From NCBI RefSeq assembly GCF_009914755.1, contig NC_060932.1: a stretch of DNA of 64,000 nucleotides, one strand, 5' to 3'. Shown here one piece after another: positions 14,844 through 15,308 of the stretch. Under the pieces are notes generated by a model. That model saw only the letters and a program-made list of their open reading frames with translations, was not told where the DNA came from and ran no database searches. The first letter of the stretch is position 1. Every line of letters starts with the position of its first letter. A program made the position numbers and the translations under genes. Source of the stretch: the human T2T-CHM13v2.0 reference genome, Homo sapiens.

Positions 14844-15308
14844 TTGGCAGGGGCTCCGTGGTCTGGCCCTCGCCTTGGGGACCGTGGGCGGAAAAGGTCT
14901 CTGCCACCATGCGCTCCACAGGTGTGAGGAGGAGGCCGGGGGCGGGGCCGCCCTCCGCCAGCTTCTTGCGCACAGCACCTCGCAGGTCCCGCCACTTGTG
15001 CTTGAGGTCCCCCAGGTCGCGGCGGCAGTAGCCCAGCGCGTTCACTGCCTGCAGGATGCGGCTCCACACGCGGTGCTTTCGGGCAGGTGTGCCCCGCAGC
15101 GCCCCGAACAGCAGCGGGTAGTGGCGCCGCACCCTCTGCACCAGCACCTCCGTCTCCTGGGGGCTGAAGTTGGGCTTGCGTGTCTTGGTGCGGGAGTGGG
15201 GGCCCGGCCGCAGGGGTGTGGAGCCCGGCCCGGCACCCAGCAGCAGGGCTGCCGCGGCCGGCTCGGGGCTGCAGCTCTGCTGGCAGATGGCTTTGCTGCT
15301 GCTGGACC
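14844..15308 (-). CDS. Intact Myb/SANT-like (MSANTD/NAIF1/Harbinger-type) DNA-binding-domain exon in the TSNARE1 intron; symmetric phase-1 exon
   Basis: ORF 14767..15375(-) contains [26 protein letters not shown]...[40 protein letters not shown], a hallmark Myb_DNA-bind_5-type pattern. Acceptor tggtgcctttccag|GG at 15308, consensus donor CCAA|gtaagt at 14844. 465 nt = 155 codons with no stops; CpG-rich. Confidence 0.88.

What the first reader, a model, noticed from the sequence alone, without database searches (positions are those of the whole stretch)
14844..15308. Second Myb exon looks like an intragenic duplicate of the TSNARE1 N-terminal Harbinger-derived Myb domain
Seen: [14 protein letters not shown]...[31 protein letters not shown]...[13 protein letters not shown]. 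From memory, the TSNARE1 N-terminal domain reads [14 protein letters not shown]...[31 protein letters not shown]...LTPVEQVVAKTFS, i.e. near-identical core blocks. Inference: the locus carries two paralogous Myb exons flanking the syntaxin exons. Either the STX12-like cassette landed inside a two-Myb transposon-derived gene, or the Myb exon was duplicated downstream. No in-frame ATG precedes the domain, so it depends on an upstream exon.
Basis: partly seen in the sequence, partly recalled or inferred. Interest (0 to 1): 0.8.

Follow-up and report, generated by a model that had tools for sequence, protein, structure and literature searches.

The report
Second, conserved Myb exon inside TSNARE1
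A conserved alternative exon in the human TSNARE1 gene encodes a second copy of the gene's transposon-derived DNA-binding domain, and when used it replaces the membrane-fusion end of the protein with an ancient tail.

Summary
Window 14844-15308 (- strand) is a 465-nt exon with AG/GT splice sites and phase 1-1. It encodes a Myb/SANT-like domain (PF13873, E 3e-20). Its closest relative in the genome is the TSNARE1 exon-3 Myb ("Myb1", about 64 kb up-gene): 60% identity over 128 aa, E 1e-47. The next relative, NAIF1, is 43-47% identical. Both exons share phase, aligned boundaries and a 16-nt identical acceptor, so this is a DNA-level exon duplication.

The exon does not flank the syntaxin exons. 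It lies in the intron that splits the SNARE motif. It splices to exon 4441-6675 in the +2 frame, giving a 200-aa tail. Frame 0 of that same exon ends the non-TM isoforms (LMRRTRPPAACGCP*). RefSeq already predicts these two-Myb isoforms (761-838 aa) in human. Comparable two-Myb models exist in other placentals and marsupials.

Turtle models have an orthologous Myb2 at the same junctions, so it predates the amniote split. Turtles and amphibians also carry a third, distant Myb ("Myb3") in front of the same tail. Human has no Myb3. Myb1 appeared only in mammalian models. The tree does not resolve which copy is older. I found no paper describing a second Myb. Function is inferred, not shown.

The parts
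14844..15308 (-). Myb2 exon: 465 nt, phase 1-1 alternative coding exon of TSNARE1
   Evidence: AG/GT sites and frames. The exact peptide is present in human XP isoforms P0001-P0007 between ...SEQGEAV and TDEEDE....
14956..15180 (-). Myb/SANT-like DNA-binding domain proper (PF13873, residues 67-141 of ORF 14767-15378)
   Evidence: Pfam E 3e-20. AF2 model shows helices 49-67, 74-89 and 98-118 plus a fourth helix 129-139.
15309..15322 (-). 3' splice-site tract shared with the Myb1 exon (14 intronic nt; with the first 2 exon bases a 16-nt identical run)
   Evidence: DNA alignment A1.
14838..14843 (-). Donor GTAAGT after the split codon base A
19538..19610 (-). Upstream SNARE-motif exon ([24 protein letters not shown]). 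It ends in phase 1 and splices to either Myb2 or exon 9765-9847.
   Evidence: junction ...EQGEAV|GSSSSK in P0007.
9765..9847 (-). Second SNARE-motif exon (D)[27 protein letters not shown]. It is skipped in the Myb2-to-tail isoforms.
6074..6675 (-). Tail: 200 aa read in frame +2 of exon 4441-6675 after Myb2 (split codon A+CT = T). It ends ...FSGMILKVEEEI, with the stop codon at 6071-6073.
   Evidence: Conserved in mammals, turtles and amphibians.
6631..6675 (-). The same exon in frame 0 after exon 9765-9847: LMRRTRPPAACGCP + stop. This is the short non-TM C-terminus.
   Evidence: human isoform X29 P0354 ends ...ASRHQLMRRTRPPAACGCP.

Best explanation
Window 14844-15308 (-) is a genuine, long-conserved alternative coding exon of TSNARE1. 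It encodes a second Harbinger-type Myb/SANT trihelix domain (Myb2).

Shown:
- Myb2 and the exon-3 Myb (Myb1) are genomic exon duplicates of one another. They have the same phase 1-1, aligned boundaries and a shared acceptor tract.
- Myb2 lies in the intron that splits the SNARE motif.
- In the predicted isoforms it is joined to exon 19538-19610 upstream. Downstream it is joined to exon 4441-6675, read in the +2 frame. The product is Myb1-Habc-half SNARE-Myb2-200-aa tail, with no complete SNARE motif and no TM anchor.
- The same last exon read in frame 0 gives the 14-aa end of the non-TM SNARE isoforms.
- Myb2 at the same junctions exists in turtles.
- The tail exists in turtles and amphibians, where a third, distantly related Myb exon (Myb3, phase 0 to 1) links the full SNARE motif to it.
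- Human has no Myb3.

Inferred:
- The older state is syntaxin + Myb3 + tail. Myb2 was added by the amniote ancestor. Myb1 is a later copy, so far seen only in mammals.
- Loss of Myb3 in the mammalian line left Myb2 as the only in-frame route into the tail.
- The long isoforms act as NAIF1-like nuclear DNA-binding or adaptor proteins, not as fusogenic SNAREs.
For: Exon anatomy.

Domain: Pfam E 3e-20. The AF2 model has mean pLDDT 77, with 73 of 154 residues at or above 90, three helices and a fourth.

Paralogy: the own-genome search returned 6 matches, and the best non-self match is the TSNARE1 exon-3 Myb at 65%. BLASTP gives E 1e-47. A 16-nt identical run spans the acceptor, and boundaries and phase are the same.

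Isoforms: one search returned 147 hits, 120 listed. The listed models with both Mybs and the tail include human X1, X2, X5, X6 and X11 and a marsupial. In P0007 Pfam finds two PF13873 stretches and no PF05739 SNARE hit. The frame-0 ending is seen in P0354.

Depth: turtle Myb2 is 81-84% identical to human Myb2 in the core, and 89-91% identical to opossum Myb2. Myb1 against Myb2 is 66-73%. Gopherus P0375 shows the order S11-Myb2-S12-Myb3-tail.

Myb3: all 53 Myb3-bearing proteins fetched are turtle or amphibian (51 named, 2 unnamed). In human, a Myb3 HMM on the six-frame window hits only the Myb2 exon, and tblastn and the own-genome search agree.

Tail: no paralogue in the human genome at E<=0.01.
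Against: All isoform evidence is from predicted gene models (XP and UniRef entries). I saw no read-level, CAGE or peptide evidence.

Plooster et al. (bioRxiv 10.1101/2021.02.09.430442, passages only) validated four brain isoforms from a 15-exon gene model. In the passages I saw they describe one Myb-like domain and no exon between the SNARE exons.

The tree does not time or polarise the duplication. Myb1 is a 100/100 clade on a long stem inside an unresolved Myb2 grade. AU tests reject neither 'all Myb2 one clade' (p 0.42) nor 'Myb1 + mammalian Myb2 one clade' (p 0.36).

Absence of Myb1 in turtles and amphibians, and of Myb2 in amphibians, rests on annotation only. I could not search their genomes. 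Birds, crocodilians, squamates, monotremes and fishes did not appear in the listed hits and were not examined.

The Foldseek matches are weak (E 0.03-0.07). DNA binding and nuclear function are untested.
Confidence: 0.72

Rival explanations
1. Myb1 (exon 3) is the founding Harbinger-derived domain, and Myb2 is its later downstream copy.
For: Papers treat the N-terminal Myb as the relic of the founding transposition (passages). The tree and AU tests do not exclude it. Myb1 is very conserved within mammals (human-opossum 96%).
Against: Turtle models carry Myb2 at the same junctions, but none of those whose sequences I inspected (11 turtle models) carries Myb1. Their N-terminus runs MSYGS..GYQPL straight into the Habc region. 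The inspected amphibian models carry neither copy.
Confidence: 0.22
2. A STX12-like cassette was inserted into a pre-existing two-Myb transposon-derived gene.
For: Myb1 lies upstream of the syntaxin exons, and Myb2 and the tail lie downstream of most of them.
Against: Myb2 and the tail are interleaved with the last syntaxin exons in the order S11, Myb2, S12, (Myb3), tail. Amphibian models have the full syntaxin gene with a different Myb (Myb3), and show no Myb1 or Myb2. The shared acceptor and phase point to duplication of an exon that was already spliced.
Confidence: 0.04
3. The two Myb exons were captured independently from two related Harbinger elements, not duplicated within the gene.
For: The locus holds a clearly independent Myb lineage (Myb3, about 30% identical to Myb1 and Myb2; nearest human relatives on chr11 and chr19). 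Repeated capture at this locus is therefore plausible.
Against: Myb1 and Myb2 are each other's closest relatives genome-wide. They also share exon phase, aligned boundaries and a 16-nt identical acceptor run. A transposon ORF would not bring these features with it.
Confidence: 0.04
4. In human the exon is a conserved-looking but unused or NMD-only pseudo-exon. On this view the long isoforms are artefacts of gene prediction.
For: Only predicted XP models contain it. It is not among the four validated brain isoforms. Its inclusion destroys the SNARE motif.
Against: The frame is open, the AG/GTAAGT sites are canonical, and the domain and the +2-frame tail are conserved from turtles and amphibians to human. 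The frame-0 reading of the same exon varies from 14 to 109 aa among mammal models.
Confidence: 0.08

Closest known systems
TSNARE1 exon-3 Myb-like domain (the one described in Plooster et al. 2021, hg38 chr8:142344079-142344414)
   Same: Same Pfam family, 60-73% identical, same exon phase and boundaries, same acceptor tract, and the same downstream LTPVE..VA.TF helix.
   Different: It has a different place in the gene, inside the SNARE motif. It is joined to a 200-aa tail instead of the Habc domain. It is present in turtle models where Myb1 was not seen. No in-frame Met precedes the domain in the open frame.
NAIF1 (Harbinger Myb-like-derived gene; Sinzelle et al. 2008, as cited in PMC9392472)
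   Same: An N-terminal PF13873 trihelix followed by a long non-domain tail. Its Myb is 43-47% identical to Myb2. That the chr9 locus is NAIF1 is my recollection of its sequence and map position.
   Different: NAIF1 is a stand-alone gene with its own start codon. Human Myb2 + tail has no start of its own and is reached only through syntaxin exons. No similarity between the two tails was found.
MSANTD1-4 family (PMC9392472)
   Same: Domesticated Harbinger Myb-like domains fixed in vertebrates. That paper lists TSNARE1, MYPOP, PRDM11 and ZSCAN20 as further putative cases (passage).
   Different: Here the domain is an alternatively spliced exon inside a SNARE gene, duplicated within the gene. MSANTD4 is only 31% identical.
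Turtle and amphibian TSNARE1 C-terminal module (Myb3 + tail; stand-alone models of 328-334 aa such as P0286 and P0272)
   Same: The same tail exon is entered in the same phase, and the architecture is the same: Myb, then an acidic linker, then a Q-rich helical tail ending FSGMILKVEEE[ILV].
   Different: Myb3 is only about 30-37% identical to Myb2. It follows the complete SNARE motif and begins with its own Met. It is absent from the human window and genome.

Membership tests
Myb/SANT-like DNA-binding domain, Pfam PF13873 (Myb_DNA-bind_5) | Profile match above the curated cut-off | tested here: met
   72.4 bits against a 21.7 cut-off, E 3e-20, profile positions 1-77 of 78.
Myb/SANT-like DNA-binding domain, Pfam PF13873 (Myb_DNA-bind_5) | Three-helix (trihelix) fold with conserved bulky hydrophobic or aromatic core residues | tested here: met
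   The AF2 model has helices 49-67, 74-89 and 98-118, with pLDDT 82-98 across the domain. W81, W105, V59, L66, I84 and V88 are nearly invariant across the 45 sequences of A2.
Myb/SANT-like DNA-binding domain, Pfam PF13873 (Myb_DNA-bind_5) | Structural similarity to solved Myb/SANT-type DNA-binding domains | tested here: inconclusive
   The top Foldseek hits are the Sap1 and Zeste DNA-binding domains, but at E 0.03-0.07, and 0 hits reach E<=0.001. There is no PDB relative by sequence profile.
Myb/SANT-like DNA-binding domain, Pfam PF13873 (Myb_DNA-bind_5) | Sequence-specific DNA binding | not testable with these tools
   Needs EMSA, CUT&RUN or similar.
Domesticated Harbinger Myb-like genes (NAIF1 / MSANTD type) | Closest relatives are Harbinger Myb-like proteins or their known derivatives | tested here: inconclusive
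   NAIF1 is 43-47% identical and MSANTD4 31%. No transposon library was available for direct comparison with Harbinger copies. Harbinger origin is taken from PMC9392472 and the Smith 2012 citation, which I could not read.
Domesticated Harbinger Myb-like genes (NAIF1 / MSANTD type) | Fixed at one syntenic place across distant species, not mobile | tested here: met
   The same exon junctions (after ..EQG[DE]..., before SIEA... or the tail) appear in mammals and turtles, judged from protein models only. There are only 2 copies in the human genome, both in TSNARE1.
Domesticated Harbinger Myb-like genes (NAIF1 / MSANTD type) | Purifying selection | tested here: inconclusive
   Protein conservation is strong: human-turtle 81-84% in the core. 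Cross-species dN/dS could not be computed because no orthologous DNA was available. Within human, Myb1 against Myb2 gives dN 0.215 and dS 0.61.
Intragenic exon duplication | Same intron phases, aligned exon boundaries, similarity reaching into the flanking intron, and nearest paralogue in the same gene | tested here: met
   Both exons are phase 1-1 (465 and 507 nt). A 16-nt identical run spans the acceptor, and the donors sit at aligned columns. The genome-wide nearest paralogue is in the same gene.
Functional Qa-SNARE (syntaxin), applied to the Myb2-containing long isoform | Complete SNARE motif and a membrane anchor | tested here: not met
   P0007 lacks exon 9765-9847 and the TM exon, and Pfam SNARE PF05739 does not hit it. 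PF05739 does hit Gopherus P0375, which includes the second SNARE exon.

The most novel reading that the evidence does not exclude
TSNARE1 may be a layered stack of three Myb exons, with the textbook picture inverted.

On this reading the founding transposon-derived module is Myb3 + tail at the 3' end, which amphibians and turtles still have. Myb2 was added inside the SNARE motif by the amniote ancestor. The well-known N-terminal Myb1 is a later, mammal-only copy of Myb2.

When mammals lost the Myb3 exon, which converts phase 0 to phase 1, the SNARE-to-exon-13 splice fell out of frame. The 'non-TM' C-terminus of the dominant brain isoforms would then be a frameshifted read of the ancient tail exon. 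Only the Myb2 isoform would still make the ancestral tail protein.
Probability: 0.4. Interest if true: 0.65.

Novelty: new member of a known kind. Interest (0 to 1): 0.5.

Why it matters
TSNARE1 is a high-confidence schizophrenia risk gene. According to the Plooster et al. passages I read, its biology has been studied through four isoforms with one Myb-like domain.

A conserved exon that swaps the fusion-competent end of the protein for a second DNA-binding domain plus an ancient tail defines a second, non-SNARE product of the locus. Risk variants, sQTLs and knock-outs may act on that product.

The locus is also a clear case of repeated Myb-exon gain, duplication and loss inside a host gene. 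One exon is read in two frames depending on which exon precedes it.

Tried and rejected
- Tail paralogues: an own-genome search with the 200-aa tail found only itself. Pfam finds nothing in the tail.
- Myb3 in human: tblastn, a Myb3 HMM on the six-frame window and an own-genome search with Chelonia P0272 all found nothing in 6676-9764. They hit only the Myb2 and Myb1 exons, at about 30%.
- Polarity of the duplication: the ML tree of 51 domain rows and two AU tests were uninformative.
- Non-mammalian Myb1: the divergent Myb1-like representatives P0157 and P0178 (66-70% identical) look like decayed unnamed ORFs, not distant orthologues. The ESM Atlas call gave only family-level clusters.
- Literature: 'TSNARE1 + Harbinger + Myb' found 2 papers. 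'TSNARE1 + Myb-like' found the same 2. 'TSNARE1 + long-read + isoform' found 2 irrelevant papers. 'TSNARE1/transposon/domesticated' added nothing. Smith et al. 2012 (PMC3278475) is not held. A description of a second Myb there, or in any supplements (none were opened), cannot be excluded.
- No complex prediction was run, because no binding claim is made.

Full report
**Observation.** On the - strand, window 14844-15308 is bounded by an AG acceptor (15310-15309) and a GTAAGT donor (from 14843). It is 465 nt long. The previous exon supplies one base of its first codon, and it hands one base (A) to the next exon, so it is phase 1-1. The frame reads [10 protein letters not shown]...[18 protein letters not shown]...[31 protein letters not shown]...[13 protein letters not shown]...TTEPLP, with no stop and no Met before the domain. 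Pfam Myb_DNA-bind_5 matches at 72.4 bits (cut-off 21.7), E 3e-20.

An AlphaFold2 model built on a 45-sequence alignment has mean pLDDT 77, and 73 of 154 residues are at or above 90. It shows a disordered N-terminal 45 residues. Then come three helices (49-67, 74-89, 98-118) and a fourth (129-139) over the [12 protein letters not shown] motif. Foldseek against the PDB puts the Sap1 and Zeste DNA-binding domains first, but weakly (E 0.03-0.07; no hit at E<=0.001). No solved relative was found by sequence profile.

**Paralogy with the N-terminal Myb.** The window is T2T chr8:143406001-143470000, and the whole genome is held. A six-frame search with the exon peptide returned 6 matches:
- itself;
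- C8:143485119-143485541, 65% identical, E 6.7e-38;
- a chr9 locus at 47%, whose sequence I recognise as NAIF1 (recall);
- chr19 at 35%;
- chr11:45.37 Mb at 35%;
- chr11:106.0 Mb at 31%.

The second hit is the TSNARE1 exon that carries the published Myb-like domain. Plooster et al. give hg38 chr8:142344079-142344414 for that domain, and the offset agrees with that of the SNARE exons. BLASTP gives 77 of 128 identical, E 1e-47.

The DNA alignment of the two exons with their flanks shows a 16-nt identical run (14 intronic bases, including the acceptor AG, then GG) across the acceptor. The donors sit at aligned columns. The Myb1 exon is 507 nt, also phase 1-1, at window-equivalent 79112-79618. These features indicate duplication of an already spliced genomic exon, not independent capture.

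Nei-Gojobori distances between the two human copies are dS 0.61 and dN 0.215 over the domain, and dS 0.37 and dN 0.055 in the core. GC3 is 0.88 and 0.77. Of 73 identical residues, 51 use the same codon. That dS looks low to me for copies that are separate clades in marsupials and placentals. Codon bias in this GC-rich region and some gene conversion are both possible, and I did not resolve this.

**Place in the gene and reading frames.** The exon does not follow the syntaxin exons. It sits between the two exons that encode the SNARE motif:
- 19538-19610 encodes [24 protein letters not shown] and ends in phase 1.
- 9765-9847 encodes (D)[27 protein letters not shown] and ends in phase 0.

A search with the ORF in exon 4441-6675 returned 147 proteins, of which 120 were listed. 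They include human RefSeq models X1, X2, X5, X6 and X11 (761-838 aa). Their sequence runs ...[13 protein letters not shown]...TTEPLP|TDEEDETPSCLW...FSGMILKVEEEI. So Myb2 is spliced to exon 4441-6675 in the +2 frame and gives a 200-aa tail.

In P0007 Pfam finds two PF13873 stretches and Syntaxin_2, but no SNARE domain. The second half of the SNARE motif and the TM exon are missing. The same exon entered from 9765-9847 is read in frame 0 and stops after LMRRTRPPAACGCP. Human model X29 ends exactly so. This fits the 'exon 13, non-TM' ending that Plooster et al. report for 93-97% of cortical transcripts. The equation of their exon 13 with 4441-6675 is my inference.

Among mammal models the frame-0 reading runs 14 to 109 aa before a stop. 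The +2 tail, in contrast, is 59-100% identical to human across the 120 listed rows, with a marsupial at 62%. Nine fetched models also use Myb2 as an in-frame cassette between the two SNARE exons.

**Depth in evolution.** A profile-free search of 1.84 billion cluster representatives with the exon peptide gave 713 hits at E<=1e-3. Two named searches started from turtle proteins. Together they show three states.

*Mammals* (placentals and six marsupials): Myb1, Habc, Myb2 and the tail.

*Turtles*: Myb2 at the same junctions. Chrysemys P0387 is Habc-half SNARE-Myb2-tail. Gopherus P0375 carries the full order S11-Myb2-S12-Myb3-tail. Chelonoidis P0129 is a 325-aa Myb2 + tail model that starts at a Met inside the exon. 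None of the turtle models whose sequences I inspected has Myb1. The N-terminus MSYGS..GYQPL runs straight into ATQIDP....

*Amphibians* (frogs, salamanders, caecilians): Habc, the full SNARE motif, then a third Myb (M-A-x-x-PRKRKEKFSP...RRRWDDMKRRTKEKL), an acidic linker and the same tail. Stand-alone 328-334-aa models begin at that Met.

All 53 fetched proteins with Myb3 are turtle or amphibian (51 named, 2 unnamed). Myb3 is only about 30-37% identical to Myb1 and Myb2. Its nearest human relatives are the chr11:45.37 Mb locus (48-54%) and the chr19 locus (42-44%). PMC9392472 lists PRDM11 and MYPOP as putative Harbinger derivatives. Assigning these two loci to those genes is my guess from map position.

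Human has no Myb3. tblastn, a Myb3 HMM over all six frames of the window, and the own-genome search hit only the Myb2 and Myb1 exons.

Core-domain identities:

| Comparison | Identity |
|---|---|
| Myb2, human vs opossum | 87% |
| Myb2, human vs turtle | 81-84% |
| Myb2, opossum vs turtle | 89-91% |
| Myb1, human vs opossum | 96% |
| Myb1 vs Myb2 | 66-73% |
| Either vs the nearest outside family (P0159/P0165/P0174, not in the human genome) | 43-51% |

**Phylogeny.** The ML tree used 51 domain rows: 20 Myb1, 19 mammalian Myb2, 6 turtle Myb2 and 6 outgroup. These were chosen from the fetched models to span orders. The Castor model gave only Myb1. Myb1 is a 100/100 clade on a stem of 0.6 changes per site. 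It sits inside an unresolved, very short-branched Myb2 grade. AU tests reject neither a single Myb2 clade (p 0.42) nor Myb1 + mammalian Myb2 with turtles outside (p 0.36). The tree therefore shows that Myb2 is older than the amniote split and evolves slowly. It does not say which copy came first. The proposed order (Myb3 + tail, then Myb2, then Myb1) rests on which models carry which exon.

**Mechanism.** The phases form a simple logic:
- S11 ends in phase 1.
- Myb2 is phase 1-1.
- S12 runs from phase 1 to phase 0.
- Myb3 runs from phase 0 to phase 1.
- The tail is entered in phase 1.

In amphibians and turtles, S12-Myb3-tail is in frame. Without Myb3, as in human, S12-to-tail is out of frame and ends early. 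Only Myb2 reaches the tail in frame. I infer that the Myb2 isoforms preserve an ancient NAIF1-like product: a trihelix, an acidic linker and a Q-rich helical tail ending in the invariant FSGMILKVEEE motif. Such a product cannot work as a Qa-SNARE. The basic stretch before the domain and the domain type suggest nuclear DNA binding or adaptor function. That part is inference only.

**What is known.** The exon and the two-Myb isoforms are in RefSeq and UniRef as predicted models. In the paper library, two papers hold TSNARE1 together with Myb terms. In the passages I read, Plooster et al. describe one Myb-like domain and a 15-exon model, and PMC9392472 only lists TSNARE1 as a putative Harbinger derivative. 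Smith et al. 2012 could not be read, and no supplements were opened. Within those limits, I found no paper that describes the second Myb, its exon-duplicate nature, the third Myb of amphibians and turtles, or the two-frame use of the last exon.

**Limits.**
- There is no expression or protein evidence.
- Absences outside mammals are annotation-level only.
- Birds, crocodilians, squamates, monotremes and fishes were not seen in the capped hit lists.
- Plooster et al. state that TSNARE1 is absent from mouse. I could not test whether rodents that lack it keep this exon. Several unnamed, decayed Myb1-like and Myb2-like ORFs exist in the databases.

Noticed in passing
window 6631-6675 versus 6074-6675 (- strand): Exon 4441-6675 is read in two frames. 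Frame 0 gives 14 aa and a stop after SNARE exon 9765-9847. Frame +2 gives the 200-aa tail after the Myb2 exon. Frame-0 endings vary from 14 to 109 aa among mammal models, while the +2 frame is conserved back to amphibians.
   Followed up: partly
turtle and amphibian proteins P0274, P0375, P0286, P0391 etc.; no counterpart in window 6676-9764: A third Myb/SANT exon (Myb3) lies between the SNARE motif and the tail in turtles and amphibians. It is absent from the human window and genome. Its nearest human relatives are at chr11:45.37 Mb (L005) and chr19:48.73 Mb (L004). These may be PRDM11 and MYPOP (recalled positions, not verified).
   Followed up: partly
window 14956-15100 versus L002 (Myb1 core): The core block [29 protein letters not shown] is nearly identical at the nucleotide level between the two human copies (core dS 0.37), including a shared rare CGA codon. 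Human and squirrel Myb2 have the Myb1-like 'SR', where dog, marsupial and turtle Myb2 have 'NK' and gibbon is intermediate ('NR'). This could reflect gene conversion or codon bias.
   Followed up: partly
proteins P0159, P0165, P0174, P0177, P0195, P0198: This unnamed family (247-823 aa) has an N-terminal Myb 43-51% identical to Myb1 and Myb2. It has the same LTP.E..VA.T helix and a C-terminal coiled coil. Its best hits among the seven human loci held (L001-L007) are the TSNARE1 Mybs, so it appears to have no human orthologue. It is the nearest outgroup and a possible source lineage for Myb1 and Myb2.
   Followed up: partly
proteins P0145, P0157, P0167, P0173, P0178 (unnamed sources): These are decayed-looking ORFs related to Myb1 or Myb2, with many changes at conserved positions. 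They may come from lineages in which TSNARE1 is degenerating. The organisms are unknown.
   Followed up: no
window 16874-16931 (- strand): This annotated 58-nt alternative exon lies between the SNARE exon and Myb2. It has no ATG, and its inclusion after exon 19538-19610 shifts the frame, so the Myb2 exon would be read in its open but non-Myb frame.
   Followed up: no
window 9854-13661 and 13295-13661 (- strand): These are alternative long terminal exons between Myb2 and the second SNARE exon. When entered in phase 1, the frame runs about 88 aa to a stop. They were not examined further.
   Followed up: no
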